Shown here: in pieces, positions 30,399-63,884 of the stretch
How the letters are laid out: each line of letters opens with the position of its first letter
How positions within the stretch are numbered: position 1 is the stretch's first letter
NCBI GenBank assembly: GCA_964585945.1
Contig: CAZPGB010000019.1
Coordinates: 29,159 to 93,158 of the forward strand
Source of the DNA: an uncultured bacterium
GTDB taxonomy: Bacteria > Eisenbacteria > RBG-16-71-46 > CAIMUX01 > WJJG01
Direction of reading: 5' to 3'
DNA length: 64,000 nt
Translations under genes and position numbers: made by a program
The notes under the pieces: model-generated
What the model saw: only the letters and a program-made list of their open reading frames with translations
Database searches by the model: none
What the model was told of the DNA's origin: nothing

Positions 30399-30454
30399 GG
30401 TGTGTCCTCGAGCGATCATGTACTGGGCGCCGTCCTCGCGATGCGGAGCGGCGC

Positions 30455-33817
<3,363 letters not shown>

Positions 33818-33818
33818 C

Positions 33819-36996: not shown

Positions 36997-37085
36997 GTAG
37001 ACGACCCGCAAGAAGGGTCCCTCTGTCACAGCCGACCTCCCTTTTCTCGCCTCGGCCCGGCACGGCCGGGGCGGGTTCTTTCGAT

Positions 37086-39227
<2,142 letters not shown>

Positions 39228-39428
39228 CGTGAACCTCCGATCTGCCTTGGCGTTTCCGGCTCCAGGCGTGGCCGCCGCGCGTCCTAGCCGGAGTCCGCGC
39301 GGCAACACAGGGTGCCACGGTCACATATCCCGCTTGCCGAACGGTCCCACGCTACAACCCGAGGCCCGCTTCAAGCGAGCGCGTTCTGCGATCGACCTGC
39401 GCCGGATTCGGTGAAGAGCCCACCGCCA

Positions 39429-48868: not shown

Positions 48869-48870
48869 GC

Positions 48871-50712
48871 TCAACACCTCGCCAGGAGCGAGCGCAAGGC
48901 GTCGCCGTGAAGCCGCAGGCCGGGGCTCAGAAGAAGCTCCACCTCACGGCCTTGGCTGGTGAGACGGCGCATCTCGGTCATCAGAACGCGCAGCCGGTTG
49001 TAGGTGAGCCGGTCGAAGGCCGCCAGCCGATCCAGGCGCGATGGGAAGCCTTCCCGTAGCGCATCGCTTCCCCTACCCTCGAGAGCATCGACCTCTGCGA
49101 TCGCGCCCCCTCGAATCGACAGGGTCCGCGGCGCGTCCTGCCCCTCCGGCGCGTCCGGCGCGTCCGGCGCCTCCGGCGGCGGATTCCACCGGAGCACCGA
49201 CTCGCTCAGCAGCGCCAGCAGGCGTGCCCGGCTGCGAAGCCGCGCCGCGTGCACCAGGAGGTGTTCGAGACCGTCGGCCACCTCGGCGGGCTCCAGCGGG
49301 GCGATCTCCGCCGCCGCCTCCTCGTCGGCCGGTCCCTCTTCGAGCCGCGGATCGACGCTCTCCGCCTCCGTCGCGCCGCTGGAAACCGCACGCGCCGCTT
49401 CGAGCTGCTCGGTTACGCGGGCCGTCAGCAGGACCGCGCCTGCCTGCATGAGAAAGGGCGCGTCCCACCGCCCCGCGGTCAGATCGCGGTGACGTTCGCG
49501 CAGCAGGTCGCACCCGTGGCGCAACGCCTGGGTCTCCAAGCGTCGCGGATCGAGCATGAGTTGCCGCGCGGTCCCGGGAAGATCGCTGAGCCGGCGCCGC
49601 GGGGCGCGCAGCAGATCGGCCAGCACGCGGACGGCCGCGAGTGTTTCGCGGCCGGGCAACGGCCCCAGGGAGTGCCGCTCATCGGGAGATTCGCGCCAGC
49701 TCGTCAGATCACGGCTGCAGAACCAGACCCCCTGGCCTTGGTCCCGCAGGGCGCGGTTGTAGGGCGGATCGAAACGGTGGATCTGTTCCACCTCGAGCAG
49801 AGCGGCCTCCAGGGCGCTTCGGGTGCAGGATGCTTGCACGTCGTGGGCGCGGGTGACCAGCTCGAGCAGCTTCTCCTCGCACCGCCGTTTGCGGTAGTAG
49901 CTGTTCACCCGCTTGCGCAGCGAGGTGGCCTTGCCCACGTAGAGCACCTCGCTCGACCGGCTCAGGAACCGGTACACACCCGGCTGGTCAGGCAGCCCGA
50001 GCCGCGTCTCCCGGGCGAGGGGGTATCGCCAGCGGGTCGCGCGCGCCGGGGGCTTCCCCGCCAGCAGCGGCAGCAGCTCATCGAGCATGCGGATGCCGCG
50101 CTCGCGCTCGAGCTGCGCGACCAGGCGCGCCCAGAGACCCGCCTGCGCCGCCACGTGGTCTGCGGCCCGCTTCAGCTCCGGCACCGGAAGGTCGAAGTAG
50201 CCGGCGAGCGCGCGCAGACCGCGCCGGGGAAGGTCCGGAAAGAGCCGGCGGGCGATCTCGTGCGTGCAGAGCCATTGCAGTGGAAAGCGTCTCCGCGGGT
50301 CGCACTCCGCATGGAGGTGGCGGAGGAACTGGTCCTCGAAGCGGGCGAAGTGGGCGACCGCCGCCACCGGGCGACCCCGGCCGGTGGCGGCTCGGCGCAA
50401 GAGCCGCCACGCGCTCCCCCGGGCGACCGCCGCGCCCAAATCCGCGTCGCGCAGTCCGGTCAGCCGGGTGATCGCGCGCGGGATCCCGGCTCCCGGCGGC
50501 AGGGCCACCAGATGGCTCTCGATCGCGGGCCGGTTCCGGCTCCAGGAGGCCGCGCTCGTGCGGGTCCAGCCGATCTCGAGGAGGTGCCCGCGCTGGGGAT
50601 TGGCGCCGGTCGTCTGGCAGTCGACGACCAGAACCGGTGCGTGCCTCAGGTTGCCATCCACGACGTCCTCCGCCCAGCGCGAGCCCCTCGCTGGTGCAGG
50701 ATGACTGAACAT
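48871..50712 (-). CDS. DnaQ-like 3'-5' exonuclease domain fused to GIY-YIG nuclease domain (Rv2191-like architecture)
   Basis: Start at MFSHPAPARGSRW. DEDD exonuclease motif: VLVVDCQTTGANPQRGHLLEIGW. GIY-YIG motif: QPGVYRFLSRSSEVLYVGKATSLRKRVNSYY. Confidence 0.7.
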   Translation of the reverse strand: MFSHPAPARGSRWAEDVVDGNLRHAPVLVVDCQTTGANPQRGHLLEIGWTRTSAASWSRNRPAIESHLVALPPGAGIPRAITRLTGLRDADLGAAVARGSAWRLLRRAATGRGRPVAAVAHFARFEDQFLRHLHAECDPRRRFPLQWLCTHEIARRLFPDLPRRGLRALAGYFDLPVPELKRAADHVAAQAGLWARLVAQLERERGIRMLDELLPLLAGKPPARATRWRYPLARETRLGLPDQPGVYRFLSRSSEVLYVGKATSLRKRVNSYYRKRRCEEKLLELVTRAHDVQASCTRSALEAALLEVEQIHRFDPPYNRALRDQGQGVWFCSRDLTSWRESPDERHSLGPLPGRETLAAVRVLADLLRAPRRRLSDLPGTARQLMLDPRRLETQALRHGCDLLRERHRDLTAGRWDAPFLMQAGAVLLTARVTEQLEAARAVSSGATEAESVDPRLEEGPADEEAAAEIAPLEPAEVADGLEHLLVHAARLRSRARLLALLSESVLRWNPPPEAPDAPDAPEGQDAPRTLSIRGGAIAEVDALEGRGSDALREGFPSRLDRLAAFDRLTYNRLRVLMTEMRRLTSQGREVELLLSPGLRLHGDALRSLLARC

Positions 50713-50719
50713 TTGTTCA
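50704..50719. promoter_or_regulatory. Candidate LexA (Cheo-type) SOS box, CTGAACA-TT-TGTTCAG, overlapping the start codon of the exonuclease/GIY-YIG gene
   Basis: Perfect 7+2+7 palindrome containing GAAC-N4-GTTC. The ATG (50712..50710, minus) lies inside it. Confidence 0.4.
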
Positions 50720-50758
50720 GTGTCAAGAAGGCGGTGGGCGTCGCGCTGTCGTCGCCGG

Positions 50759-51634
50759 CTACAGCCAGAGCGGCTCCAGGCCCGGCCCCGAGGCGTCGAG
50801 TCTTCCGGAATCACGCAGGGCGTCGAGCTCGGCCACCAGCCGCTCCTGATCCCGTGGAAACCGGCCGGCCAGGGGCACGACATTGGACACATGATTGGCC
50901 CGGAAGAGTGTGCGGTGCAGGTCCAGGTGCGACACCAGCTCGCGGAGCTCCTGTACGGCCTCCAGCTCCGTGAGTTGCTGAAATGAGCCGCCCGCGATGG
51001 CGTGCATGAGCGGCGTCCCGGGAACCGGGATGTAGCGAAGCGCCGCCAGGAAAGCCGGCTGCATGCCGTTGACCGCTTCGGCGGTGGCGACCGCGTGCAC
51101 GCGCGACCGTTGGCGACCGGCCAGGCCGGTCAGCACCATCACCGACATGCGCAATCCCGCGGCCTGGGCGCGCTGGGCGGCGAAGATCATCTCCGAGGCG
51201 CGATCGCACTTTCCCACGCGCGACAATGTTTCCTGGTCCCCGCTCTCGAGCCCCATGTAGAGGGTGTGCAAGCGTGCAGCGCGCAGACGGCGGAGCTGCG
51301 CGTCGGACTTGGACAGGATGGAACGACCGTTGGCGTAGAGGCTCACGCGGGCCAGGCGAGGCAGCCGGGCGGCGAGACGATCCAGGATGCGGCCCAGCCG
51401 TTCGTAGGAGAAGGCCATCACGTCACCGTCGGCCAGAAAGACACGCGCAGCGGCCGGATCGCTCATGGCGGCCTGGTCGATGGCTCGATCGATCTCCTCG
51501 GACGTGTGGGCCCGATAGCGGACCGACTTGTACATGCCGCAGAAGGTGCACCCGTTATGCGGGCACCCATCGGCAACGCGCAGGATGAGGCTGTCGGCCT
51601 CCGATGGGGGGCGGAACATGGGCAACTCTTGCAT
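50759..51634 (-). CDS. Radical SAM domain protein (Cys motif CPHNGCTFC, Cx4Cx2C spacing)
   Basis: Cys-rich motif at residues ~23-31, followed by Gly-rich SAM-binding and TIM-barrel-like segments. Function unknown. Confidence 0.6.
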   Translation of the reverse strand: MQELPMFRPPSEADSLILRVADGCPHNGCTFCGMYKSVRYRAHTSEEIDRAIDQAAMSDPAAARVFLADGDVMAFSYERLGRILDRLAARLPRLARVSLYANGRSILSKSDAQLRRLRAARLHTLYMGLESGDQETLSRVGKCDRASEMIFAAQRAQAAGLRMSVMVLTGLAGRQRSRVHAVATAEAVNGMQPAFLAALRYIPVPGTPLMHAIAGGSFQQLTELEAVQELRELVSHLDLHRTLFRANHVSNVVPLAGRFPRDQERLVAELDALRDSGRLDASGPGLEPLWL

Positions 51635-51731
51635 CCGGGGGACCTCCAGCCCTTCCGTGACATCCGAGCCGCGCCCACACCGGCCGTGGCCGGAGCGCTC
51701 GGCACTGAAGTCGGCGCGGTCGAGTGCGTGA

Positions 51732-53192
51732 TTAGGCGTAGGGTAGCGCGTCGCGGGAGGGTGCGGTAGCGGTAGTGTCCGGCGGATCTTCAGCAGCGAA
51801 CTCTCGTGCCAGGTCCTGATCGTCCGCCAGACTCAGGTAGAAGGTCGATCCCTTTCCGGGCGCCGAGTCGACCCAGATGCGGCCCCCGTGGGTCTCGGCG
51901 ATGCGGCGCACGATCGCCAATCCGACGCCGCTGCCGGAAGCCTGCTCCCGGCTTGCACGGGCCCGGTAGAACATCTGGAAGATGCGCTCGTGCTCCTCGG
52001 CGGGCAGCCCGGCCCCGTTGTCCCGCACGTAGAACCGGCCCCGTTGCGGTTCCCAGCCCACCTCCACCCAGCCGGCCCGCCCCGCGGGCATGTACTTGAT
52101 CGCGTTGTCAATCAGGTTGGTGAAAAGCTGGCCCAGCCGCAACCGGTCGCCGCGCACGCTGGGCAGCCGACCCGCGATGCCCAGCCGGATCCCCCGGGCC
52201 GCCGCCGCGGGCTCCAGGTCGGCCAGCACCTCGCGCACGAGGGCATTCAGCTCCACCCGTTCCCGCAGCTCGTCTCGGCGACCCACGCGCGACAGCTCCA
52301 ACAGATCTCCGAGGAGGGCCTCCATCTGACGGGCATTGTGGACAATCCGCTCCAGGTGCCTCTTCTCACGCGCCTGAAGCCGCTCGCGCGCCTGATCCTC
52401 AAGGAGCTGGGCGAACCCGGCCACCGCGATGATCGGGGCCTTCAGGTCGTGCGACACCATGTAGAAGAACTCCTCGAGCTCCTTCTGCTTGGCCTGCAGC
52501 GATCGGTAGGCGCTCTCCAGGCGCCGCGAGTAGCGGCGCACTTCCTGTTCGTGGGTCTTGTGGTCGGTGATGTCGTAGGAGAGCTCCAGACGCACCGTCC
52601 GACCGTCCGGCCAGAGGATCGGACGGTTGACCATCTGGAACCACCGCTCGCCCCCACGGGCGGACACCTCCCATTCCTGGGTCGATTCGTCCGCGCGCTT
52701 CGGATGGGTGCACGGACAGTGTTCGCAGGGACTGCGGCGACCGTGAATCGCTTCAAAGCACCTCCGCCCCTGCAGGGGCCCCAGTGACGATTCGGCCGGG
52801 GCGTTGGCGAAGAGGATCTGGTGGGTGGTCGGATCGATGACGTAGGCCGGCTCGCCTAAGCTGTCGAGCACAGTCCGTAGCTGTTCCACCTCATGCTCCA
52901 GGTGCTGCTCGTGGCGCCGCAGTTCCAGGAACAGAGGCTTGACGAGGGCCAGCCCCAGGCAGAGCAGCAGCGAGGTGGCCAGCGCGATGATCTCGCTGAC
53001 AGGGTCGAGCGCGGATGGGCTTCCCGCCGCGAGCATCTGCTGCAGATGCACGCCGCGGCGGACGGCCATGAGCGACACGCCCAGGGCGATGAGCAGCCAG
53101 GCGGCCTGGTGGCGGGTCAGCCGCAGGAGGCGCAGGCTGAGCCCCACCGCCAGTCCCTGCAACAGCACCGACAGCGCAACGACGACCCACAT
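51732..53192 (-). CDS. Sensor histidine kinase (TM helices + PAS-like region + HisKA + HATPase_c)
   Basis: H-box: MVSHDLKAPI. N-box: LIDNAIKYM. G-boxes: DNGAGLP...GSGVGLAIV. Confidence 0.8.
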   Translation of the reverse strand: MWVVVALSVLLQGLAVGLSLRLLRLTRHQAAWLLIALGVSLMAVRRGVHLQQMLAAGSPSALDPVSEIIALATSLLLCLGLALVKPLFLELRRHEQHLEHEVEQLRTVLDSLGEPAYVIDPTTHQILFANAPAESSLGPLQGRRCFEAIHGRRSPCEHCPCTHPKRADESTQEWEVSARGGERWFQMVNRPILWPDGRTVRLELSYDITDHKTHEQEVRRYSRRLESAYRSLQAKQKELEEFFYMVSHDLKAPIIAVAGFAQLLEDQARERLQAREKRHLERIVHNARQMEALLGDLLELSRVGRRDELRERVELNALVREVLADLEPAAAARGIRLGIAGRLPSVRGDRLRLGQLFTNLIDNAIKYMPAGRAGWVEVGWEPQRGRFYVRDNGAGLPAEEHERIFQMFYRARASREQASGSGVGLAIVRRIAETHGGRIWVDSAPGKGSTFYLSLADDQDLAREFAAEDPPDTTATAPSRDALPYA

Positions 53193-53552
53193 GATCCTTG
53201 CTCTTCCCAGACTGGGACGTCCGCCGGAGGCCTTGCCGCCCGGCTTCCGACCCCCTGCGAACGCTTCAATGGACCTCTGCTGGACCTATCGGCAGGCCCG
53301 CGACCGCGATTGCGCAGTTGTTGTCGGCGGGGCGCCGCGGCCGCTACGCTCCGACCCTGGGCGGACGGGGCCCAGCAAACGACAACGGGACGGGAACTCG
53401 GACGTGCCCCAGACGTTCAAATTCGCGAGTACCTGTGATGGTAGTCCCAAGATCTTTTCCAGCCGCGAGTTGGGCGGCGGGAAGCGCCGCGCCGGACGAC
53501 GGTTGACCGCCAGGTGCCGTCGCGGCGGGGTGGGAGCCGACGGAGGTGGAAT

Positions 53553-55184
53553 GTGGATGAGGCGATCTTCACGCTCTCGACGCCGGAGAACGAGCCGGTG
53601 CGGGAGTACGCACCCGGCAGTTCCGAGCGGACGGAGCTGAAGGCCAAGCTCGAGGAGCTCGCGGGAGAGCAGATCGAGATCCCCCTGATCATCGGCGGCA
53701 AGGAGGTCCGCACGGGCCGCACGGCTCAGTGCGTCATGCCGCACGACCACGGACACGTGTTGGCCACCTACCACCTGGCGGGTCCGAACGAGGTCGACCA
53801 GGCGATCGCGGCGGCGCGGGCGGCCTGGTACGAGTGGCCCAAGCTTCCTTGGCCCGAGCGCGTCTCGGTCTTCCTGAAGGCGGCCGAGCTCCTCAGCGGA
53901 CCCCGCCGGGCCGAGGTGAACGCGGCCACCATGCTGGGCATCAGCAAGAACGTCCAGCAGGCCGAAATCGACTCGGCCTGCGAGCTGATCGATTTCTTCC
54001 GCTTCAACGCCCACTTCATGGATGGGATCTACTCGCATCAGCCCGAGTCCTCGCTCGGAATCTGGGACCGCCTGGAATGGCGTCCGCTGGAGGGCTTCGT
54101 CTTCGCGGCGACGCCGTTCAACTTCACGTCCATCGCCGGCAACCTGCCATCCGCCCCGGCCATGATGGGCAACACGGTCATCTGGAAGCCCGCCTCCAGC
54201 GCGGTCTACTCCGCGTACTACGTCATGCGTCTGCTGATCGAGGCGGGCTTGCCCCCAGGCGTGATCAACTTCCTGCCGGGACCCGGCCGCGTGGTGGGCG
54301 AACCGGTCCTCAACCATCCGGAGCTGGCCGGCATCCACTTCACCGGTTCCACCGACACCTTCCGCGGCATGTGGCGGACGGTGGGGGCCAACATCGCCGC
54401 CTACCACTCCTACCCGCGCATCGTCGGCGAGACGGGCGGCAAGGACTTCGTCTTCGCCCATCCTTCGGCCGACGTGCAGTCGCTCGTGGTGGCGCTGGTG
54501 CGCGGGGCCTTCGAGTACCAAGGCCAGAAGTGCTCCGCGGCCAGCCGCGCCTACATTCCCGAGAGCCTCTGGCCCGAGGTGGAAGGGCGCCTGGTCGCGG
54601 CGGTCGAGGCGATTCGGCAGGGCGATCCGCGAGACTTCCGCAATCTGATGTGCGCGGTCATCGACCAGCAGGCCTACGAGAACATCACCGGCTACATCCG
54701 GCTTGCGCAGGACTCGCCCGACGTCGAGATCCTGTCGGGCGGGGTGGGTGACAGCTCGCAAGGGTACTTCATCCCCCCCACCCTGGTGCACACGCGCGAT
54801 CCCCGCCACACGCTGATGGCAGAGGAGATCTTCGGACCCGTCCTGACGGTCTACCGGTACCCGGACCAGGCCTACGAGGAAACCCTGGAGCTGTGCGACA
54901 AGACCTCGCCCTACGCGCTGACCGGTGCGGTCTTCGCGCGCGACCGCTACGCGATCATGACGGCGCATCGCAAGCTCCGCTACGCGGCCGGCAACTTCTA
55001 CGTCAACGACAAGCCGACCGGTGCCGTGGTGGGCATGCAGCCTTTCGGCGGCGCGCGCGCCAGCGGCACGAACGACAAGTCCGGGTCGATGCTCAATCTG
55101 CTGCGGTGGGTCAACCCGCGCACCATCAAAGAGACCTTCGTGCCGCCCACCAAGGTCGACTATCCTCACATGGGCGCCGAGTAG
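53553..55184 (+). CDS. pruA: 1-pyrroline-5-carboxylate (glutamate-gamma-semialdehyde) dehydrogenase, single-domain ALDH4-type
   Basis: GTG start with a GGAGGT RBS. ALDH motifs: FTGSTDTFRGM...GETGGKDF...EYQGQKCSAASR (catalytic Cys). The N-terminus LSTPENEPVREYAPGS is typical of RocA/PruA. Confidence 0.8.
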   Translation: MDEAIFTLSTPENEPVREYAPGSSERTELKAKLEELAGEQIEIPLIIGGKEVRTGRTAQCVMPHDHGHVLATYHLAGPNEVDQAIAAARAAWYEWPKLPWPERVSVFLKAAELLSGPRRAEVNAATMLGISKNVQQAEIDSACELIDFFRFNAHFMDGIYSHQPESSLGIWDRLEWRPLEGFVFAATPFNFTSIAGNLPSAPAMMGNTVIWKPASSAVYSAYYVMRLLIEAGLPPGVINFLPGPGRVVGEPVLNHPELAGIHFTGSTDTFRGMWRTVGANIAAYHSYPRIVGETGGKDFVFAHPSADVQSLVVALVRGAFEYQGQKCSAASRAYIPESLWPEVEGRLVAAVEAIRQGDPRDFRNLMCAVIDQQAYENITGYIRLAQDSPDVEILSGGVGDSSQGYFIPPTLVHTRDPRHTLMAEEIFGPVLTVYRYPDQAYEETLELCDKTSPYALTGAVFARDRYAIMTAHRKLRYAAGNFYVNDKPTGAVVGMQPFGGARASGTNDKSGSMLNLLRWVNPRTIKETFVPPTKVDYPHMGAE

Positions 55185-55240
55185 TCCCGCCCGGCGGGCC
55201 TCCTCGGTAAGGACCTGTGCTGGAAACCTGCGGGGCGACC

Positions 55241-56203
55241 ATGCGGCAGCCGGAAGGCGTGATCTTTGATCTGCAGCGCTACGCCATTCATGACGGGCCG
55301 GGCATTCGCACGACCATCTACTTCAAGGGCTGTCCGCTGGTCTGCGACTGGTGCCACAACCCAGAGGGCCAGGACCCGGATGCTCAGCTCCTGATCGATC
55401 CCTCGCGTTGCATCCGGTGCGGCGCGTGCGCGCAGGTCTGCCCCGAGGGCCTGGCGGCGCCCGCCCCAGGGGGTGTCGGGGACGAGGCCGCGGCGTCCGA
55501 TGGCGCCGCGGCGGACGGGCGCGGGGATGAGCCGACCGCCGGGCGGTGTCGCCGGTGCGGCCGGTGTGCCGAGGCGTGTCCGGCCCAGGCCCGGCGCATG
55601 GCCGGACGGTGGGTATCAGCGGAGCGTCTGGTGGACGAGATCGAGCGCGATCGGCCCTTCTTCGAGAGCTCGGGCGGCGGCGTGACCTTCTCGGGCGGCG
55701 AGCCCTTGTTGCAGGCGACGTTCCTGCTGGCGACCCTCGCCGAATGCCGCCGTCGCGGTCTTCATCGCGTAGTCGACACCTGCGGATACGCCCCGCCCGC
55801 GACGCTGTCGGCCGTCGCCGAGGAGACCGATCTGTTCCTCTTCGACCTGAAGACCATCGACCCGCAGCGCCATCGCGCGCACACCGGCGTTGCGCTGGAA
55901 CCGATCCTCGCGAACCTGCGCCTGCTGGACGATCGCGGGGCGGTGGTCTGGATCCGGACCCCCTTGATCGCGGGTTTCAATGATACCCCCGAACAGATCG
56001 AAGCGATGGGTCGCCTGGTCGCCTCGCTGAACCAGGTGCGGCGCATCCACCTGCTGCCGTATCATCGCGGCGCCGAGGCCAAGCTCGCGCGTCTGGGGCG
56101 GGCGCCTGGGCCCACGCCCTACGCCACGCCGCATTTGGAAGAGCTGGAAGGGGCCCGCCGCCGTCTGGAGCGTCTCGGCCTGGAGGCGATCGCGGGAGGA
56201 TAG
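55241..56203 (+). CDS. Glycyl-radical-enzyme activating enzyme (radical SAM with two auxiliary ferredoxin-like 4Fe-4S motifs)
   Basis: Radical-SAM motif CPLVCDWCHN. Auxiliary clusters: CIRCGACAQVCP and CRRCGRCAEACP. GGEPLL is present. Confidence 0.85.
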   Translation: MRQPEGVIFDLQRYAIHDGPGIRTTIYFKGCPLVCDWCHNPEGQDPDAQLLIDPSRCIRCGACAQVCPEGLAAPAPGGVGDEAAASDGAAADGRGDEPTAGRCRRCGRCAEACPAQARRMAGRWVSAERLVDEIERDRPFFESSGGGVTFSGGEPLLQATFLLATLAECRRRGLHRVVDTCGYAPPATLSAVAEETDLFLFDLKTIDPQRHRAHTGVALEPILANLRLLDDRGAVVWIRTPLIAGFNDTPEQIEAMGRLVASLNQVRRIHLLPYHRGAEAKLARLGRAPGPTPYATPHLEELEGARRRLERLGLEAIAGG

Positions 56204-56280
56204 CTCCGCGGTGCGGCCGCATGAGCCGGCCGACCGCGCGAGCGCCGAAGGGCGGGTTGGTAGAAAGGAAGTCCCGAGCC

Positions 56281-58641
56281 ATGACCGAACGGGTTCGTCG
56301 ACTGCGCCAGCAGAGCCTGGCCGCGCTGCCGTCGCTCAGCGCCGAGCGGGCGCGCATCGTGACGCGCTTCTACCGCGAGCAGAGCGGGAAGCACTCGGTC
56401 CCCGTGCTGCGCGCCCTTGCGTTCGAGCGCATCTGTGCGGAGAAGACGATTCATCTGGGTGCCGGGGAGCTGATCGTCGGCGAGCGGGGTCCGGCGCCCA
56501 AGGCGGTGCCCACCTTCCCGGAGCTGACCTGCCACAGCCTCGAGGACCTGCGTTTGCTCGACACGCGGCCCAAGACGCGCTATGCGGTCGCTCAAGACGT
56601 GTTTCGCGTCTACGAAGAGGAGATCATCCCCTACTGGCAGGGCCGCAGCCTCCGCGACCGCATCTTCGCCGCGATAACCCCCCAGTGGCAACGCGCGTAC
56701 GAGGCGGGCATCTTCACCGAGTTCATGGAACAGCGGGCGCCCGGACACACGGTGGCCGACGGGAAGATCTACGCCCACGGGCTGCTCGACTTCAAGGCGC
56801 GGATCGACGAGGCGCAGGGCGCGCTCGACTTCGCCCGCGACCCGCGCGCCTATTCGCGGGCCGAGCAGCTCCGCGCCATGGCCATCGCCGCCGACGCCCT
56901 GATCGCCTTCGCCCGGCGGCACGCCGAGCGCGCCCGGGAGCTGGCGGCCGCAGAAGCCGACCCGGAGCGCCGGGCCGAGCTCGAGCGGATCACCGAGATC
57001 TGCACCCACGTGCCGGCGCACGCGCCGCGCGACTTCCACGAGGCGCTCCAGGCCTACTGGTTCTGCCACCTGGCGGTGATCACCGAGCTCAATGGGTGGG
57101 ACGCGTTCAGCCCCGGGCACCTCGACCAGCACCTGGAGCCTTTCTATCGGCAAGGGCTCGCCGACGGCACGCTCTCGCGCGAACGGGCCCGCGAGCTGCT
57201 GAGCTGTTTGTTCATCAAGTTCAACAACCATCCCGCCCCTCCCAAGGTGGGCGTCACCGCGGCCGAGAGCGGCACCTACACCGACTTCGCCAACATCAAC
57301 CTGGCTGGCCTGAAGCGCGACGGCAGTGACGCTGCCGGCGAGGTGTCCTACCTGCTGCTGGAGGTGATCGACGAGCTCCATCTGCTGCAGCCCAGCCAGA
57401 ACGTGCAGATCTCGCGCCGGACCCCCGACCGGTTCCTCCACGAGGCCCTGCGCGTGATCCGCAAGGGCTACGGGTTTCCTTCGGTCTTCAACGCCGACAC
57501 GGTGGTGGCCCAGATGCTGCGCCAGGGCAAGCGGATCGAGGACGCGCGCGAGGGCGGCACCAGCGGCTGCGTGGAGACCGGGGCCTTCGGTAAGGAGGCC
57601 TACATTCTGACCGGCTACTTCAACCTGCCCAAGGTGCTGGAGCTGACGCTGCACAACGGCCGTGATCCCCGCACCGGCCTGCAGCTCGGGCCCAACACCG
57701 GTGATGCGGCGGGCCTGGCGACGTTCGATCATCTGATCCAGGCATGGCAGCGCCAGGTGGAACACTTCGTGGAGATCAAGGTCCGCGGCAATCAGGTGAT
57801 CGAGCGGCTCTACGCCGAGCAGATGCCCGCCCCGTTCCTCTCGCTGATCACCGATGACTGCATCGCCACCGGACGTGACTACAACGACGGCGGCGCCCGC
57901 TACAACACGACCTACATCCAGGGTGTCGGCATCGGCACGCTGACCGACAGCCTGGCGGCCCTGCGCACACACGTGTATCGGAGAGAAACCCTCGGCATGG
58001 CGGAGCTCCTGGCCGCCCTGGCGGAGGACTTCAGCGGCCACGATCCGCTCCTCAACCTGCTGCGGCACCGCACCCCCAAGTGGGGCAACGACGACGACGA
58101 GGCCGACGATCTGATGCGGACCGCCTTCGAAGTCTTCTTCAACGCCGTCGAGGGACGGCCCAACACCAAGGGCGGCCACTATCACATCAACATGCTGCCC
58201 ACCACGTGTCACATCTACTTCGGCTCGGTCACGGGCGCCACGCCCGACGGTCGCCGGGCGGAAGCACCGTTGTCCGAAGGCATCTCGCCGGTGCAGGGCA
58301 TGGACCGCAAGGGTCCGACCGCCGTCTTCCTGTCGGCCGCCAAGATGGACCACGTCAAGACGGGCGGCACGTTGCTCAACATGAAGTTCGTGCCGCAGGT
58401 GCTCGGCGGCGAGGACGGGCTGGCCAAGCTGGCGGCCCTGGTGCGCACCTACTTCCGCCTGGGCGGCCACCATGTCCAGTTCAACGTGGTGCGCGCCGAG
58501 ACGCTGCGGGCCGCCCAGTCCGATCCCGACGCGCACCGTGACCTGATCGTGCGCGTGGCCGGATACAGCGACTACTTCTGCGATCTGTCCGAGGCGCTGC
58601 AGAACGAGATCATCGCGCGCACCGAGCAGCAGCTCTCCTGA
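56281..58641 (+). CDS. Glycyl radical enzyme of the dehydratase/lyase (Cys-x-Glu) class; substrate unknown (HypD / CutC / glycerol-dehydratase-like)
   Basis: AAAGGAAG RBS. Thiyl-loop motif GGTSGCVETGAFGKE (C-x-E). C-terminal glycine-radical motif RVAGYSDYFCDL. Confidence 0.8.
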   Translation: MTERVRRLRQQSLAALPSLSAERARIVTRFYREQSGKHSVPVLRALAFERICAEKTIHLGAGELIVGERGPAPKAVPTFPELTCHSLEDLRLLDTRPKTRYAVAQDVFRVYEEEIIPYWQGRSLRDRIFAAITPQWQRAYEAGIFTEFMEQRAPGHTVADGKIYAHGLLDFKARIDEAQGALDFARDPRAYSRAEQLRAMAIAADALIAFARRHAERARELAAAEADPERRAELERITEICTHVPAHAPRDFHEALQAYWFCHLAVITELNGWDAFSPGHLDQHLEPFYRQGLADGTLSRERARELLSCLFIKFNNHPAPPKVGVTAAESGTYTDFANINLAGLKRDGSDAAGEVSYLLLEVIDELHLLQPSQNVQISRRTPDRFLHEALRVIRKGYGFPSVFNADTVVAQMLRQGKRIEDAREGGTSGCVETGAFGKEAYILTGYFNLPKVLELTLHNGRDPRTGLQLGPNTGDAAGLATFDHLIQAWQRQVEHFVEIKVRGNQVIERLYAEQMPAPFLSLITDDCIATGRDYNDGGARYNTTYIQGVGIGTLTDSLAALRTHVYRRETLGMAELLAALAEDFSGHDPLLNLLRHRTPKWGNDDDEADDLMRTAFEVFFNAVEGRPNTKGGHYHINMLPTTCHIYFGSVTGATPDGRRAEAPLSEGISPVQGMDRKGPTAVFLSAAKMDHVKTGGTLLNMKFVPQVLGGEDGLAKLAALVRTYFRLGGHHVQFNVVRAETLRAAQSDPDAHRDLIVRVAGYSDYFCDLSEALQNEIIARTEQQLS

Positions 58642-58678: not shown

Positions 58679-60391
58679 CTAGCCGTCCATGTAGGGGCCA
58701 GCCTGGAGGACGGTGCGCGGCAAGCGGGGCGCGAAGCGCCGCAGGTTCGCATCCAACCGCGCCGCTTCGCCGGGCCCGACCGCGTAGAGGGTCACCGTAT
58801 CGCCGCCGGTCACCACGTTGTGCTGGATGCGCCACTGGCCCAGCGGTTGCCACCCGCCTGGGATTCGGAGCCAGTTGTCGTAGACGATCGCGATTTGCAC
58901 ACCCTCGTCCTGCAGAAGCCGCTCGAGCGCGCGGGCGTGGTAGGACCGCGTCCGCCGCAGCGTGGCCACCTCGCGGTGCGCGAGACCGACCAGGTCGACG
59001 CAGTGGATGTCGGCCAGGTAGTTGACCGCCCCGATGTCGTTCACCGCCACCACTGCGCCCGGGTAGTAGTCGCGGAGGAACCGGCCCATCTGGATCTGCT
59101 GCTCGTAGATGTTGGCCATGGCGCGCGGCGCCTCCAGCGTGGCGCGCACGGCGCGGTCGCCCAGACCCGCCGCGGCCAGGACGATCGCCAGCAGCAGCGC
59201 CCAGCGACCGGGCGGGCGCAGTTGGGCGGCCACATCGCCCGTCTCCCCCCCGCGTGACAGCTCCAGCCAGCCCACCGCCAGGGTGAGCAGTCCCAGGCCG
59301 ACCAGATAGGCCTCGTAGCGATAGAACCAGCCGACATCGGCCAGGGCGACGTGCAGCAGGGTGGCACCCACGAAGAGGACGGTCAGGTCGGCGCCGGCGC
59401 GGGGTTGCTCCGCCTGCGGCTTCGCCCGCAGCAATCGCACCCGCAGCAGCAGGGCGGCGATCAAGAGCAGGAGCAGGTGCGGATTGTTGAGCAGCCGGCG
59501 CAGGACAATGAGCCCAGTGAGGGTCTTGACGGCCTGCCCGGCGCTCTCGGTAGGTAGATTGGCCTTCAGCAACATCGAGTTGGGGAAGAAGAGCCAGCCC
59601 TGGGAGACCGAGATCCAGCCGTACAGGACGACGGGCAGCGCCGCGGCCAGAACGAGGAGCGCTCCCTCGAGCAGACCGCGGCGCCGGATCAGCCACAGCG
59701 CCGCGATCAGGATCAGAAACAGGCTCTCGTAGCGGACCGCGACCATGGCGACGGTGATGAGCAACAGCGCGACTGGAATACCGCGGGCCGAGGACTTCAG
59801 ACGCCCCATCCAGGATTGCGCGAAGAGCAGCACCAGCCACAGGTGGAGCATGTGCTCCTGACCCGTTGCGATCAGCGCCGAGAACGGGACCAGCAGGATC
59901 ACCACGGCCAGCGCCGCCGCGATCAGGGCGGCGCGGCCGGCGCCCGAGCTTCGGTCGCTCTCGCCGCCGGCCACGCGCGCCAGCAGGCGCGCGCAGGTCC
60001 ACAGGACGCCGACGGCGAAGATCAGGTTGAGCACCAGTGGCACGGCGTCCCGCGGCCCGGTGACGAGGAAGACCCCGCTCAGCAGCAGCGTCCAGAGCGG
60101 CGAGGAGGAGGACGAAGAGAATTCATGGCGCGTGACGCCCCACACGCCGTGTTCCACGACGTTCTTTGCCATTGCCAGGTGGACATAGGAGTCGTCGAGC
60201 GCGTAGGTGAGCTGGCCCTCGGTCAGCGCCAGCCCGCGCAAGAGGACGAAGCCCGCCACCAGCGCCAGCAGGGCCAGGCCGATCACCATCGGCCGGAAGG
60301 TGGATGGGTCCGACGCCGCCGGGGCCGGCCGCGCATCACCTGCGCCGTTGCGGTCCCGCGACCGGCGCGTCCTGTCGCCGCGCTTCTTCAT
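58679..60391 (-). CDS. Polytopic integral membrane protein, function unknown (start may be the internal MVIGLALLALVAG at ~60289)
   Basis: About 12 predicted TM helices plus a C-terminal soluble domain. No confident family assignment. Confidence 0.45.
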   Translation of the reverse strand: MKKRGDRTRRSRDRNGAGDARPAPAASDPSTFRPMVIGLALLALVAGFVLLRGLALTEGQLTYALDDSYVHLAMAKNVVEHGVWGVTRHEFSSSSSSPLWTLLLSGVFLVTGPRDAVPLVLNLIFAVGVLWTCARLLARVAGGESDRSSGAGRAALIAAALAVVILLVPFSALIATGQEHMLHLWLVLLFAQSWMGRLKSSARGIPVALLLITVAMVAVRYESLFLILIAALWLIRRRGLLEGALLVLAAALPVVLYGWISVSQGWLFFPNSMLLKANLPTESAGQAVKTLTGLIVLRRLLNNPHLLLLLIAALLLRVRLLRAKPQAEQPRAGADLTVLFVGATLLHVALADVGWFYRYEAYLVGLGLLTLAVGWLELSRGGETGDVAAQLRPPGRWALLLAIVLAAAGLGDRAVRATLEAPRAMANIYEQQIQMGRFLRDYYPGAVVAVNDIGAVNYLADIHCVDLVGLAHREVATLRRTRSYHARALERLLQDEGVQIAIVYDNWLRIPGGWQPLGQWRIQHNVVTGGDTVTLYAVGPGEAARLDANLRRFAPRLPRTVLQAGPYMDG

Positions 60392-60969: not shown

Positions 60970-61090
60970 ACCAGCCAATTTCCGGATATGAAACGTATTG
61001 GCTGTATAAATCGCTCGACTTTTCTTTATTGACATCGGAGAATACATCCAATTTGGCCGATATTGGCTTAGAGTCTCACTATTGGCAGTC
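60970..61090. promoter_or_regulatory. AT-richer divergent promoter region with five ATTGGC/GCCAAT motif copies and a TTGACA hexamer; candidate MocR operator
   Basis: GCCAAT at 60974, ATTGGC at 60997, CCAATTTGGCC at 61049, ATTGGC at 61062 and 61081. TTGACA at 61029. Confidence 0.35.
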
Positions 61091-61108
61091 ATTGGGAGGG
61101 CCAAGCTC

Positions 61109-62626
61109 ATGAAGCCGTCCGATCTCGGTCTGCGGATCGATCGCTCCGCGAGCCTGCCGATCTACCGGCAGATCGTACGTCAAATCCGCGAACAGGTTCG
61201 CGAGGGGCGGTTGCGGGCCGGCGAGTTGCTGCCCCCCGAGCGTCAGTTGGCCGATGCGCTGGGCGTCAACCGCACGACGGTGCTCAACGCCTACGCCGCA
61301 CTGAAGCGCCAGGGGCTGGTCTCGGCCCACGTGGGGCGTGGGACCCTCGTCCTGCCCATGCCCGGCGCGGCGGGCGCGCAAGGATCGGCCCTGCATTGGG
61401 GCCAGCTCTTCAGCGAGGCATCGGCCCGCGATCCGAACCCGGTCATCCGCGACCTGCTCGAGATCTCCGAGCGCGAGGGGATCATCTCGCTGTCGATCGG
61501 GTTGCCCTGTCCGCGTCTTCTGCCGCTCGAGCTGTACGAAGGGGTCACCGCCGCGGTGGCGCGCGAGATCGGCGCGCCCGCCCTGCTGCACGGACCGACC
61601 GAGGGCATCACCCCACTGCGCGAAGGCCTGGCCGCGTGGCTCGGCCGGCGCGGCGTGGACTGCACGGCGTCGAACGTGCTGGTCCTTTCGGGATCGCAGC
61701 AGGGCCTCGACCTGGTGGCGCGCGCGTTTCTGGATCCGGGCGACGCGGTGATCGTGGAGGAGCCCTCCTACTTCGGCGCCATGCAGACGTTCCGATCGGC
61801 TCAGGCCCGGCTGGTCGGGGTGCCCTGCGACGAGGACGGCCTGAGGACCGATCTGCTGGCCCAACTGCTCGAGCGGCAGCGACCCAAGTTGATCTACACG
61901 CTGCCGACGTTTCAGAACCCCTCGGGCCGGGTCATGTCGCTCGAACGACGCCGGGAGCTGCTGGCGCTCGCCGCACGCCACCGGGTGCCGATTCTGGAGG
62001 ACGATCCCTACGGCGAGCTGCGCTACGACGGGGAGTCGTTGCCCAGCCTCAAGGCCCTGGACGAACAGGGGACGGTGCTCTACTTGAGCACTATGTCGAA
62101 GATGCTCTTTCCCGGTCTGCGCGTGGGGTGGCTCGTCGCGCCGCCGGAGGTCGTCCAACGATTGACGCTGGTGAAGCAGACGGTCGACCTGCAGTGCAAC
62201 ACTCCCGGGCAATGGGTCCTCGAGAGGTTCTTGAGCGCGGGCCATCTCGACGAGCACGTGGAGACGCTGCGGCGGGCCTACACGCGCAAGCGTGACGTGA
62301 TGCATGAAGTGCTGACTCGGGAAGCGCCCGAGGGCACGCAGTGGCGCAAGCCTCAGGGCGGCTTCTACGTCTGGTGCCGGCTTCCCGAGGACGTGGAACG
62401 ATCACGTCTGATCGCCCTCGCCGCCGAACAGGGGGTCTCCTTCCTCCCCGGGTGGATCTGTTACGTCCACGACCCGGGAGCGTCGGACCTGCGACTGAAC
62501 TTCACCTACGCCACGGAGGATGAGATCGCACAAGGCGTGCAGCGACTGATGCAGTCGGCGCGCGCAAGCCGGGGTGCGGGGCGGGCGCGATCGCTCAGCG
62601 CCATCGGCACGCCGCCGATTGTGTGA
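61109..62626 (+). CDS. MocR/GabR-family transcriptional regulator (GntR-type wHTH + fold-type I aminotransferase-like domain)
   Basis: GGGAGGG RBS. HTH segment: LPPERQLADALGVNRTTVLNAYAALKRQGLV. The aminotransferase domain includes the SKMLFPGLRVGW PLP-lysine region. Confidence 0.85.
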   Translation: MKPSDLGLRIDRSASLPIYRQIVRQIREQVREGRLRAGELLPPERQLADALGVNRTTVLNAYAALKRQGLVSAHVGRGTLVLPMPGAAGAQGSALHWGQLFSEASARDPNPVIRDLLEISEREGIISLSIGLPCPRLLPLELYEGVTAAVAREIGAPALLHGPTEGITPLREGLAAWLGRRGVDCTASNVLVLSGSQQGLDLVARAFLDPGDAVIVEEPSYFGAMQTFRSAQARLVGVPCDEDGLRTDLLAQLLERQRPKLIYTLPTFQNPSGRVMSLERRRELLALAARHRVPILEDDPYGELRYDGESLPSLKALDEQGTVLYLSTMSKMLFPGLRVGWLVAPPEVVQRLTLVKQTVDLQCNTPGQWVLERFLSAGHLDEHVETLRRAYTRKRDVMHEVLTREAPEGTQWRKPQGGFYVWCRLPEDVERSRLIALAAEQGVSFLPGWICYVHDPGASDLRLNFTYATEDEIAQGVQRLMQSARASRGAGRARSLSAIGTPPIV

Positions 62627-62681
62627 CGCGTTCCGGTCGACCTGGCCGAGAGACGATTCACCGCGTGATGGAGGAAGCGAC

Positions 62682-63884
62682 ATGGCTACGCAACTCGCCC
62701 GCCGCATGGAGCAGATGAAGGCTTCGGAGATCCGAGAGATTCTAAAGCTCACGGCCAAGCCCGAGGTGATCTCCTTCGCCGGCGGCTTGCCGGCCGCGGA
62801 GCTGATGCCCGTGGAGGAGATGGTCGCCGTTTGCCGCGAGGCACTCGAACAAGACGGGCGCCGCGCGCTGCAGTACTCCACCACCGAGGGTCATCCGGGC
62901 CTGCGGGCGGCCATCGCCGCCCGGATGAATCGGCAAGCGGGGAGCCGTCTCGAAGCGGAGCACGTCCTCATCACCACCGGATCGCAGCAAGGCCTCGACC
63001 TGACGGGCAAGCTCTTCCTGGACGAAGGGGACGTCGTGCTCTGCGAGAGCCCCACCTACCTGGGCGCCATCAATGCCTTCCGTGTCTATGGACCCACGTT
63101 CGTCGAGGTGCCCACCGATGACGACGGGATGATCCTTCCGGAGCTCGAACGCCTGCTGCAACAGCACGCTCGCATCAAGTTCATCTATGTCGTGCCCGAC
63201 TTCCAGAACCCATCGGGTCGAACCTGGTCGCTGCGGCGGCGACGTGCTTTCATGGACCTGGTCTCCTACTACGAGGTGCCGGTCATCGAGGACCGGCCCT
63301 ACTCCGAGCTCTACTTCGAGGGTGAGCCCCTGTCCTCGCTGCAGTCCCTGGACCGATCGGGGTTGGTGATCTCTCTGGGCACCTTCTCGAAGATCCTGTG
63401 CCCCGGGCTGCGCGTGGCCTGGCTGGTCGCGACGCCCGAGCTCTTGCGACGCTATGTGCTGGTCAAGCAGAGCACCGACCTGCACACCGCGACCTTGGCC
63501 CAGGAGCAGGTGCACCTGTATCTGGCGCGATACGAACTGGAGGGGCGGCTGGAGACGATGAGAGCCGTCTACCGAGAGCGACGCGACGGCATGCTGGCCG
63601 CCATCGAGCGCGCCTTCCCCCCCGGCGTACGCTACACGCGTCCCGGCGGGGGCCTGTTCCTGTGGGTGGAGCTGCCCGAGCGGCTATGCGCGCGTGCTCT
63701 TCTGCAGCGGGCTCTCGCCCGCGACGTCGCCTTCGTGCCCGGGGGCTCCTTCTTTCCCAACGGCGGTCACGAGAACACGCTGCGTCTCAGCTTCTCGACC
63801 ATGACGCCCGACCGGATCGCAACGGGCATCGAGCGCCTGGGCGAGACCCTTCTTGACGCCCTCACGGAACCCGCGGCTTCGTGA
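62682..63884 (+). CDS. PLP-dependent aminotransferase, MocR-subfamily paralog lacking the HTH domain (2-aminoadipate/aromatic aminotransferase-like)
   Basis: GGAGGAAG RBS. Starts MATQLARRMEQMKASEIREILK. The PLP-lysine region is SKILCPGLRVAW. About 40% identical to the regulator's effector domain (by eye). Confidence 0.8.
   Translation: MATQLARRMEQMKASEIREILKLTAKPEVISFAGGLPAAELMPVEEMVAVCREALEQDGRRALQYSTTEGHPGLRAAIAARMNRQAGSRLEAEHVLITTGSQQGLDLTGKLFLDEGDVVLCESPTYLGAINAFRVYGPTFVEVPTDDDGMILPELERLLQQHARIKFIYVVPDFQNPSGRTWSLRRRRAFMDLVSYYEVPVIEDRPYSELYFEGEPLSSLQSLDRSGLVISLGTFSKILCPGLRVAWLVATPELLRRYVLVKQSTDLHTATLAQEQVHLYLARYELEGRLETMRAVYRERRDGMLAAIERAFPPGVRYTRPGGGLFLWVELPERLCARALLQRALARDVAFVPGGSFFPNGGHENTLRLSFSTMTPDRIATGIERLGETLLDALTEPAAS

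What the first reader, a model, noticed from the sequence alone, without database searches (positions are those of the whole stretch)
53553..58641. pruA - GRE-activase - glycyl radical enzyme operon: candidate anaerobic (hydroxy)proline-to-glutamate route
Three tightly spaced co-directional genes encode P5C dehydrogenase, a GRE activating enzyme and a C-x-E-class glycyl radical eliminase. The only GRE known to produce P5C is trans-4-hydroxy-L-proline dehydratase (HypD), which is normally paired with P5C reductase. Pairing instead with P5C dehydrogenase would make glutamate, an oxidative variant that I am not aware of having been described. The MocR-type regulator pair 2.5 kb downstream could sense an amino-acid effector. 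Alternatively the GRE may be a CutC/IslA/glycerol-dehydratase type that is unrelated to pruA.
Basis: inference. Interest (0 to 1): 0.65.

Follow-up and report, generated by a model that had tools for sequence, protein, structure and literature searches.

The report
Hydroxyproline-to-glutamate operon (pruA, activase, hypD)
Three adjacent genes encode a bona fide anaerobic hydroxyproline dehydratase, its activating enzyme and a P5C dehydrogenase, most likely converting hydroxyproline to glutamate; this gene pairing was already noted in print in 2018, so it is a well-supported but modestly novel example.

Summary

The enzyme is trans-4-hydroxy-L-proline dehydratase (HypD). It passes the NCBIfam HypD equivalog cut-off (1249.7 vs 1100). 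It scores 998 bits to solved HypD against 524 for the next enzyme. All 15 active-site residues checked are kept. PruA passes the P5C dehydrogenase equivalog.

The pairing is uncommon but not chance. Among 158 distinct related hypD loci, a P5C dehydrogenase lies nearby in four independent cases. These involve three non-orthologous enzyme types (PruA, RocA, PutA), three of them directly adjacent. No ProC homologue was detected in any locus.

The best reading is Hyp -> P5C -> glutamate with NADH formed, HypD supplying the P5C that proline dehydrogenase usually supplies.

Huang et al. [quoted passage not shown] The MocR genes are not linked to hypD in any relative. I found no experimental test of the route.

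The parts
53193..53552 (.). Intergenic region (360 bp) between the divergent histidine kinase gene and pruA. It presumably holds the operon promoter and regulatory sites, which are not identified.
   Evidence: No sigma-70-like promoter hit and no Rfam match. Only short patches are conserved with the syntenic relative L082, e.g. TGGTAG(T/C)C(C/G)CAAG near 53438, plus the Shine-Dalgarno AGGTG.
53553..55184 (+). pruA: monofunctional L-glutamate gamma-semialdehyde / P5C dehydrogenase, 543 aa.
   Evidence: TIGR01236 equivalog, 791 bits against a cut-off of 613.6. Best solved relatives are M. tuberculosis PruA 4IDM (623 bits) and human/mouse ALDH4A1 (about 575 bits). Catalytic Cys327 (GQKCSA) and Glu293 (ETGGK) are present. 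GTG start with GGAGG Shine-Dalgarno.
55217..56203 (+). Glycyl-radical enzyme activating enzyme (radical SAM), 328 aa, or 320 aa from the ATG at 55241.
   Evidence: TIGR02494, 312 bits against a cut-off of 174. The best specific model is the HypD activase NF043069 at 296 bits, below its cut-off of 425. It has the CX3CX2C motif at residue 39 and two CX2CX2CX3C ferredoxin-like motifs at residues 65 and 111. An activase sits directly upstream of hypD in 123 of 148 related loci.
56281..58641 (+). hypD: trans-4-hydroxy-L-proline dehydratase (glycyl radical enzyme), 786 aa. The longest ORF starts at 56221.
   Evidence: NF043068 equivalog, 1249.7 bits against a cut-off of 1100. It scores 998 bits to C. 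difficile HypD 6VXC/6VXE in an ungapped alignment of 789 aa at 52.7% identity, against 524 bits for glycerol dehydratase. All 15 active-site residues checked are conserved.
51732..53192 (-). Orphan sensor histidine kinase, divergent from pruA. It is a possible regulator, but the link is not established.
   Evidence: HisKA and HATPase_c domains, with a sub-threshold PAS domain. It is conserved in the same position only in the syntenic relative L082/L084, at 56% identity. That could be plain synteny.

Best explanation

Proposed mechanism:
1. The radical-SAM activase installs the glycyl radical on Gly761 of HypD (786-aa numbering).
2. HypD dehydrates Hyp to (S)-delta1-pyrroline-5-carboxylate (P5C).
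3. P5C equilibrates with glutamate gamma-semialdehyde.
4. PruA oxidises the semialdehyde with NAD+ to glutamate.

The net reaction is Hyp + NAD+ + H2O -> Glu + NADH + H+. HypD therefore takes the place that proline dehydrogenase usually holds as the P5C supplier for PruA. This gives a route that needs neither O2 nor quinone and lets Hyp serve as a carbon, nitrogen and reductant source.

Shown here: the identities of the three enzymes, their operon-like spacing, and the recurrence of the pairing in other lineages. Inferred: co-transcription, metabolite flow and physiological role.
For: Enzyme identities:
- HypD passes its NCBIfam equivalog cut-off.
- HypD matches the solved HypD structure far better than any other GRE. 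That includes the other hydroxyproline-related GREs named in a 2026 review: 8ID1 447 bits, 8IOF 427 bits, 7VUA 387 bits.
- HypD keeps F152, R156, H160, W277, D278, K326, S334, D339, F340, C434, V435, E436, Y450, T645 and G765. Backman et al. 2020 showed by structure and mutagenesis that many of these are required (PMC7077986).
- PruA passes the P5CDH equivalog and has the catalytic Cys and Glu.

Operon structure:
- The gaps are 32 and 77 nt with no terminator-like site.
- No proline dehydrogenase or ProC homologue was detected in the 64-kb window.

Recurrence, among 158 distinct related hypD loci with 1.81 Mb of flanks:
- L082/L084: an orthologous PruA at 80% identity in a syntenic relative.
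- L049: a RocA-type TIGR01237 enzyme in the same order P5CDH-AE-HypD, in a Bacillota MAG.
- L070/L134: a PutA-like bifunctional enzyme directly downstream of hypD, in a Verrucomicrobiota MAG.
- L021: a TIGR01236 enzyme 6.5 kb downstream in Desulfosporosinus, in a cluster with proline-racemase/hydroxyproline-epimerase-family and ornithine-cyclodeaminase-family genes.
- My rough estimate of the chance expectation is 0.3-1 such genes. Poisson P(>=4) is then 0.0003-0.019.

Literature: Huang et al. 2018 inferred the same route from gene context.
Against: - The pairing is rare: 4 of 158 related loci. Most hypD loci have no conserved neighbour other than the activase.
- The next-closest relative, L081 (HypD 75% identical), has neither pruA nor an activase beside hypD.
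- In the syntenic relative L082 an opposite-strand gene sits between the activase and hypD, so strict co-transcription is not conserved.
- No Hyp transporter, peptidase or dedicated regulator lies in the unit.
- The activase does not reach the HypD-activase equivalog cut-off.
- No promoter was identified.
- Only 64 kb of the genome is visible, so a ProC, a proline dehydrogenase or a second P5CDH elsewhere cannot be excluded.
- There are no expression or enzyme data.
Confidence: 0.75

Rival explanations
1. The linkage is incidental. PruA serves ordinary proline or arginine catabolism, fed by a proline dehydrogenase encoded elsewhere. The P5C made by HypD is mainly reduced to proline by a ProC encoded elsewhere, for biosynthesis or Stickland-type reduction.
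For: - pruA is absent from 154 of 158 related hypD loci, so HypD clearly functions without a neighbouring P5CDH.
- The closest syntenic relative shares the flanking genes as well, so that conservation may be plain synteny.
- L081 lacks the link altogether.
Against: - The spacing is tight and co-directional, with no terminator-like site.
- No proline dehydrogenase or ProC homologue was detected in the window.
- P5CDH of three non-orthologous types has been recruited next to hypD in different phyla, three times directly adjacent. This exceeds my rough chance estimate.
- The two roles are not exclusive: PruA could serve both proline and Hyp catabolism.
Confidence: 0.17
2. The GRE is not a hydroxyproline dehydratase but another C-x-E eliminase (choline, isethionate, glycerol/propanediol, or an N-methyl- or D-hydroxyproline enzyme), and is unrelated to pruA.
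For: It shares the general eliminase features (C-x-E loop, PFL-like fold) and scores 380-525 bits to the other solved eliminases listed.
Against: - It exceeds the curated HypD equivalog cut-off and stays far below every other equivalog cut-off.
- It scores 998 bits to HypD against at most 524 to any other solved GRE.
- All HypD-specific residues are present, including D278 and D339, which are strictly conserved in HypD and not in other eliminases, and S334, where other eliminases have Phe.
Confidence: 0.03
3. The downstream MocR-type genes sense hydroxyproline or a related amino acid and regulate the operon.
For: MocR-family proteins bind amino-acid or PLP-related effectors (general knowledge). 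The genes lie 2.4 kb downstream of hypD.
Against: - Two opposite-strand genes, a membrane protein and a GNAT acetyltransferase, separate them from hypD.
- The first passes the PdxR (pyridoxine biosynthesis regulator) equivalog, 365 bits against a cut-off of 320. The second has no HTH.
- There is no MocR homologue in the syntenic relative. Only 2 of 163 hypD loci have one, each about 7 kb away.
Confidence: 0.05

Closest known systems
Clostridioides difficile HypD / HypD-AE / ProC (P5C reductase): reductive, Stickland-linked hydroxyproline pathway (Levin 2017, cited from memory; Huang 2018 PMC6219649; Backman 2020 PMC7077986)
   Same: The same GRE family, with every active-site residue checked conserved, 52.7% identity without gaps, and the same activase-upstream-of-hypD arrangement.
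   Different: The partner enzyme is an NAD+-dependent P5C dehydrogenase rather than P5C reductase, so the predicted product is glutamate rather than proline. No ProC homologue was detected in the window or in 163 related loci.
hypD with a neighbouring 'putative dehydrogenase' in Oscillibacter valericigenes (Huang et al. 2018, PMC6219649)
   Same: The same inferred logic: P5C made by HypD is oxidised to L-glutamate.
   Different: That case is a one-sentence inference from gene context in a Firmicute. I could not fetch that locus to compare the dehydrogenase type or gene order. Here the dehydrogenase is shown to be a TIGR01236 PruA sitting first in a three-gene string, in a 69% GC uncultured bacterium.
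Monofunctional PruA with proline dehydrogenase (e.g. M. tuberculosis pruA-pruB; B. subtilis putB-putC), and bifunctional PutA
   Same: The same second step, P5C / glutamate semialdehyde to glutamate. The window's PruA is closest to M. tuberculosis PruA 4IDM.
   Different: P5C is supplied here by an oxygen-sensitive radical dehydratase acting on Hyp, not by a flavin- and quinone-dependent proline dehydrogenase. No PRODH homologue was detected in the window. The usual pruA-PRODH linkage is stated from general knowledge.
Aerobic bacterial hydroxyproline pathway (Hyp epimerase, D-Hyp dehydrogenase, Pyr4H2C deaminase, KGSA dehydrogenase) and the mammalian PRODH2 / ALDH4A1 route
   Same: Both use hydroxyproline as a carbon and nitrogen source. 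The mammalian route also uses an ALDH4A1-type enzyme homologous to this PruA (pathway from PMC6219649 and general knowledge).
   Different: Those routes are thought to need O2 and end in 2-oxoglutarate or 4-hydroxyglutamate. This one removes the hydroxyl group first, by radical dehydration, and ends in glutamate.

Membership tests
Trans-4-hydroxy-L-proline dehydratase HypD (glycyl radical enzyme) | Scores above the curated NCBIfam equivalog cut-off (NF043068) and below the cut-offs of all other GRE equivalogs | tested here: met
   1249.7 bits against a cut-off of 1100. The next equivalogs are all below their cut-offs: HpsG 535/1000, PRK09983 formate C-acetyltransferase 481/1109, CutC 470/1050.
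Trans-4-hydroxy-L-proline dehydratase HypD (glycyl radical enzyme) | Glycyl radical motif RVxG and Cys loop C-x-E | tested here: met
   RVAGYSD aligns G781 (806-aa numbering) with CdHypD G765. GCVE aligns with C434-V435-E436.
Trans-4-hydroxy-L-proline dehydratase HypD (glycyl radical enzyme) | HypD-specific catalytic and substrate-binding residues: H160, D278, D339, S334, F340, Y450, T645, F152, W277, R156, K326 | tested here: met
   All are identical in an ungapped alignment to 6VXC. Their roles are taken from PMC7077986.
Trans-4-hydroxy-L-proline dehydratase HypD (glycyl radical enzyme) | Closest solved structure is HypD, by a clear margin over other eliminases | tested here: met
   998 bits to 6VXC/6VXE, against 524 (glycerol dehydratase), 468 (CutC), 447 (8ID1), 427 (8IOF), 387 (7VUA, HplG) and 379 (IslA).
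Trans-4-hydroxy-L-proline dehydratase HypD (glycyl radical enzyme) | Dehydrates Hyp to P5C in vitro after activation | not testable with these tools
   Needs anaerobic enzymology.
GRE activating enzyme (radical SAM) | CX3CX2C radical-SAM cluster motif, ferredoxin-like auxiliary cluster motifs, and the TIGR02494 subfamily cut-off | tested here: met
   CPLVCDWC at residue 39; CIRCGACAQVC at 65 and CRRCGRCAEAC at 111. TIGR02494 scores 312 bits against a cut-off of 174.
HypD-specific activase equivalog (NF043069) | Score above the curated cut-off of 425 bits | tested here: not met
   296 bits. It is still the best specific activase model (CutD 262, HpsH 255). The Desulfosporosinus activase beside hypD also falls short, at 303 bits. 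The specific assignment therefore rests on adjacency to hypD, not on this model.
P5C / L-glutamate gamma-semialdehyde dehydrogenase, PruA/ALDH4A1 type (TIGR01236) | Equivalog cut-off, catalytic Cys and Glu, and best solved relatives all being P5CDH | tested here: met
   791 bits against a cut-off of 613.6. Cys327 and Glu293 are present. The top 16 PDB matches are all P5CDH or PutA.
Reductive HypD-ProC (Stickland) hydroxyproline module | P5C reductase gene (proC) next to hypD | tested here: not met
   tblastn with E. coli ProC finds nothing in the window (E<=1e-3) or in 163 related loci (E<=1e-5). A single query may miss very divergent ProC.
Oxidative HypD-P5CDH module (inferred by Huang et al. 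2018) | A verified hypD clustered and co-oriented with a verified P5C dehydrogenase gene | tested here: met
   Independent instances are L049, L070/L134, L021 and L082.
Oxidative HypD-P5CDH module (inferred by Huang et al. 2018) | Hyp-dependent glutamate formation, or growth on Hyp | not testable with these tools
   I found no experimental report in the library.
MocR-type regulator of the operon | GntR-type HTH plus aminotransferase-like domain, and conserved linkage to the regulated genes | tested here: not met
   The first protein has both domains but scores as a PdxR equivalog. The second lacks the HTH. No linkage to hypD is seen in relatives.

The most novel reading that the evidence does not exclude
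In several uncultured anaerobic lineages, HypD has replaced proline dehydrogenase as the P5C-generating partner of P5C dehydrogenase. This module was assembled at least four separate times from three non-orthologous dehydrogenase types (PruA, RocA, PutA). It would be a distinct, O2- and quinone-independent, NADH-yielding route from collagen- or plant-derived hydroxyproline to glutamate. In environmental hypD clades it would be the main dedicated fate of P5C, rather than the textbook reduction to proline.
Probability: 0.6. Interest if true: 0.4.

Novelty: new member of a known kind. Interest (0 to 1): 0.3.

Why it matters
HypD is among the most abundant glycyl radical enzymes in gut and sediment metagenomes. 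According to Huang et al. 2018, the fate of its product P5C remains unclear in most anaerobes that encode it. This operon and its convergent counterparts give concrete, clonable gene sets for testing the proposed oxidative branch, Hyp to glutamate plus NADH. That branch would let anaerobes use hydroxyproline from collagen or plant cell-wall glycoproteins as a carbon, nitrogen and reductant source rather than as a Stickland electron acceptor. It refines a known pathway and is not a new kind of system.

Tried and rejected
- Exact look-up of the window's HypD, both the 806-aa form and the 786-aa P0001, returned no contig. The rest of the source genome could not be examined. The protein is known only from one 102,946-nt NCBI contig, and the organism's taxonomy stays undetermined.
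- All-against-all clustering of neighbour ORFs in 80 species loci gave no conserved partner except the activase.
- Pfam censuses of the two genes upstream (126 ORFs) and downstream (124 ORFs) of AE-hypD gave no recurrent family. The most frequent were ABC_tran in 6 and EamA in 5.
- A riboswitch or RNA element upstream of or within the operon: no Rfam hit at E<=1.
- A sigma-70 promoter in the pruA upstream region: none found.
- Alignment of the hisK-pruA intergenic regions of the window and L082 shows only short conserved patches. I could not match them to a known promoter type.
- The 570-aa membrane protein downstream as a possible Hyp transporter: no Pfam, NCBIfam or PDB match. It is convergent to hypD, so it is not counted as part of the system.
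- Literature searches for an experimental demonstration of HypD plus P5C dehydrogenase found none. Hits on 'putA' were the word 'putative'.
- L069 has an aldehyde dehydrogenase near hypD, but its best matches are lactaldehyde and sulfoacetaldehyde dehydrogenase models rather than P5CDH, so it was not counted.


Full report
**1. What is in the sequence**

The window is about 69% GC. ORFs with the codon-position GC pattern of real genes (GC3 0.84-0.91) form a + strand string:
- 53514/53553-55184
- 55217-56203
- 56221/56281-58641

Start sites, judged from ribosome-binding sequences:
- pruA most likely starts at the GTG at 53553, 7 nt after GGAGG. This gives 543 aa, the same length as the orthologue in L082.
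- The activase starts at the GTG at 55217 (AAGGA upstream) or the ATG at 55241.
- The GRE starts at the ATG at 56281 (AAAGGAAG upstream). The resulting 786-aa protein is 100% identical to the 786-aa database protein P0001.

The gaps are 32 and 77 nt. No terminator-like site lies between the genes. A histidine kinase gene (51732-53192) is divergent upstream. A membrane-protein gene (58679-60391) is convergent downstream.

**2. Identity of the three proteins**

*The GRE is HypD.*
- It scores 1249.7 bits on the NCBIfam HypD equivalog NF043068 (cut-off 1100). It stays far below the cut-offs of the other GRE equivalog models listed, including CutC, HpsG/HpfG, indoleacetate decarboxylase and 4-hydroxyphenylacetate decarboxylase.
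- Against all PDB sequences it gives 998 bits to C. difficile HypD (6VXC/6VXE), in an ungapped 789-residue alignment at 52.7% identity.
- Other solved GREs score much lower: 524 for glycerol dehydratase, 468 for CutC, and 447, 427 and 387 for 8ID1, 8IOF and 7VUA. A 2026 review identifies these three as HpyG, HpzG and HplG, which act on other hydroxyproline derivatives.
- All 15 residues I mapped are identical: F152, R156, H160, W277, D278, K326, S334, D339, F340, C434, V435, E436, Y450, T645 and G765.
- Backman et al. 2020 showed that H160, D278, D339, E436, S334 and F340 are essential. They also report that D278 and D339 are conserved in HypD but not in other eliminases.

*The activase.* It has the CX3CX2C motif and two ferredoxin-type motifs and passes TIGR02494. 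It does not reach the narrow HypD-activase equivalog cut-off (296 against 425).

*PruA.* It passes TIGR01236 (791 against 613.6). It is closest to M. tuberculosis PruA (623 bits) and mammalian ALDH4A1. It has the catalytic Cys327 and Glu293.

**3. Is the pruA-hypD linkage more than chance?**

I collected 163 hypD loci:
- 80 GTDB species representatives
- 80 metagenome contigs
- 3 from exact look-ups of the closest relatives

These reduce to 158 distinct loci with 1.81 Mb of flanking DNA. HypD identity to the window's protein is 62-76%.

*What is conserved.* The activase lies directly upstream of hypD in 123 of the 148 loci that have enough upstream sequence. Nothing else is broadly conserved, as shown by ORF clustering and by Pfam censuses of the two nearest genes on each side.

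*Where a verified P5C dehydrogenase lies nearby.* There are four independent cases:
1. L082/L084. This is a syntenic relative with HypD 74% and PruA 80% identical. The histidine kinase, the radical-SAM gene and the downstream membrane protein are also syntenic.
2. L049, a Bacillota MAG. It carries a RocA-type enzyme (TIGR01237, 720 bits against a cut-off of 660) that is only 34% identical to the window's PruA. The gene order is the same, P5CDH-AE-HypD, with 84- and 35-nt gaps.
3. L070/L134, Verrucomicrobiota. A PutA-like proline dehydrogenase/P5CDH fusion lies directly downstream of hypD.
4. L021, Desulfosporosinus sp. FKB. A TIGR01236 enzyme lies 6.5 kb downstream. The cluster also holds a second GRE, a proline-racemase/hydroxyproline-epimerase-family gene, an ornithine-cyclodeaminase-family gene and sarcosine-oxidase-like genes.

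*Chance estimate.* This is my own rough estimate. With one or two P5CDH genes per 4-5 Mb genome, chance predicts about 0.3-1 such gene in 1.81 Mb. Poisson P(>=4) is then 0.0003-0.019. Three of the four cases are directly adjacent and co-oriented, and three non-orthologous enzyme types are involved. That pattern argues for convergent functional recruitment.

*ProC and proline dehydrogenase.* E. coli ProC detects no homologue in any of the 163 loci or in the window. The window also has no proline dehydrogenase homologue.

*Caveats.*
- The sample covers only the HypD clade nearest the window.
- ProC was searched with a single query.
- L081, the next-closest relative, has neither pruA nor an activase beside hypD.
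- In L082 a 328-aa opposite-strand gene splits the activase from hypD.

**4. Mechanism**

The best-supported reading is a two-step route: Hyp is dehydrated to P5C by HypD, and P5C (as glutamate semialdehyde) is oxidised to glutamate by PruA. NAD+ is reduced in the second step.
- The enzyme identities and gene arrangement are shown.
- Co-transcription, flux and physiological role are inferred.
- HypD occupies the position that proline dehydrogenase normally holds next to monofunctional pruA genes (general knowledge, e.g. M. tuberculosis pruA-pruB).
- The window also encodes secreted peptidases, a C25 and an S8-like enzyme (S8 by synteny with L082). This fits a proteolytic lifestyle but proves nothing about Hyp supply.

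**5. Comparison with the literature**

Huang et al. 2018 (PMC6219649) make three relevant statements:
[quoted passage not shown] - The fate of Hyp remains unclear in most hypD-encoding anaerobes.

Later papers treat only the HypD-ProC route experimentally. I found no experimental test of the oxidative branch. The idea is therefore published as an inference, not demonstrated.

What this analysis adds:
- A rigorously typed example.
- Evidence that the pairing arose repeatedly, with different P5CDH families.
- The observation that, within this environmental clade, P5CDH rather than ProC is the only P5C-consuming neighbour detected.

**6. The MocR genes**

- 61082-62626 is a complete GntR-HTH plus aminotransferase-fold protein. 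It passes the PdxR equivalog (365 against 320).
- 62574-63884 is a 41%-identical paralogue without the HTH. It overlaps the first gene by 53 nt.
- A membrane protein gene and a GNAT acetyltransferase gene, both on the opposite strand, separate them from hypD.
- They are absent from the syntenic relative and from 161 of 163 loci.

There is no support for a role in this operon.

**7. Verdict**

This is a real and correctly recognised three-gene unit. The GRE is HypD, and the Hyp-to-glutamate interpretation is the most likely one (confidence about 0.75). Novelty is limited: it is a new, well-documented member of a pairing already noted in 2018. Interest is 0.3.

Noticed in passing
window 61082-62626 and 62574-63884: Two paralogous MocR-like genes (41% identical) overlap by 53 nt. 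The first is full length and passes the PdxR equivalog. The second has only the aminotransferase-fold domain and no GntR HTH. Whether the second is an enzyme, a truncated regulator or a partner of the first is unknown.
   Followed up: partly
window 58679-60391 (-): A 570-aa polytopic membrane protein with no Pfam, NCBIfam or PDB match. It is convergent to hypD, and the same position is conserved in L081, L082/L084 and L083, the close relatives fetched by exact look-up, at 56-59% identity. This includes L081, which lacks pruA and the activase. It may be lineage synteny only.
   Followed up: partly
window 50759-53192 (-): An orphan histidine kinase (HisKA, HATPase_c, weak PAS) followed by a 291-aa radical-SAM protein, divergent from pruA. 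The pair is conserved in L082/L084. No response regulator is adjacent.
   Followed up: partly
window 47765-50892 (-): An Mre11/SbcD-like phosphoesterase and a 673-aa DEDD exonuclease with a UvrC-type (GIY-YIG) N-terminal segment. They lie between the DUF72 gene and the radical-SAM gene, which are adjacent in the syntenic relative L082. This looks like an insertion relative to L082.
   Followed up: no
window 55217-56203, activase residues about 79-108: An Ala/Gly/Asp-rich low-complexity insert lies between the two ferredoxin-like cluster motifs. The corresponding stretch is much shorter in L070, and L082 carries a differently placed insert.
   Followed up: partly
window 5547-7361, 11541-15458, 26055-28475, 44107-45900: Several large predicted secreted proteins end in a FlgD_ig-like C-terminal domain. 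They include a peptidase C25 (gingipain family) and a subtilisin-like protease, which suggests a shared sorting or anchoring signal in a proteolytic organism.
   Followed up: no
window 28479-39308 (-): A glycogen / alpha-glucan gene cluster of GlgE-pathway type: GlgB-like branching enzyme, a 1120-aa alpha-amylase-family protein with a maltokinase N-terminal cap domain (possibly a TreS-maltokinase fusion), GlgE-like maltosyltransferase, a GT4 glycosyltransferase and an isoamylase-like enzyme.
   Followed up: no
window 15627-20312 (+): A 1561-aa protein with at least 8 Kre9/KNH-like Ig repeats plus Big_7 domains. It has unusual codon-position composition for this window (GC2 0.56, GC3 0.92).
   Followed up: no
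L021 (Desulfosporosinus sp. FKB) 400-20500: A large apparent hydroxyproline-related gene cluster. It holds a second, non-HypD GRE (no equivalog cut-off reached; it passes only the generic PFL2/glycerol-dehydratase subfamily model, and its best equivalog score is CutC 704 against a cut-off of 1050), two activases, HypD, a proline-racemase/Hyp-epimerase-family gene, an ornithine-cyclodeaminase-family gene, sarcosine-oxidase-like subunits and PruA. The second GRE may act on another hydroxyproline isomer.
   Followed up: partly
L082 6819-7805 (-): A 328-aa lipoprotein-like gene with no family match (GC3 0.82) is inserted on the opposite strand between the activase and hypD in the syntenic relative. 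It has no counterpart in the window.
   Followed up: partly
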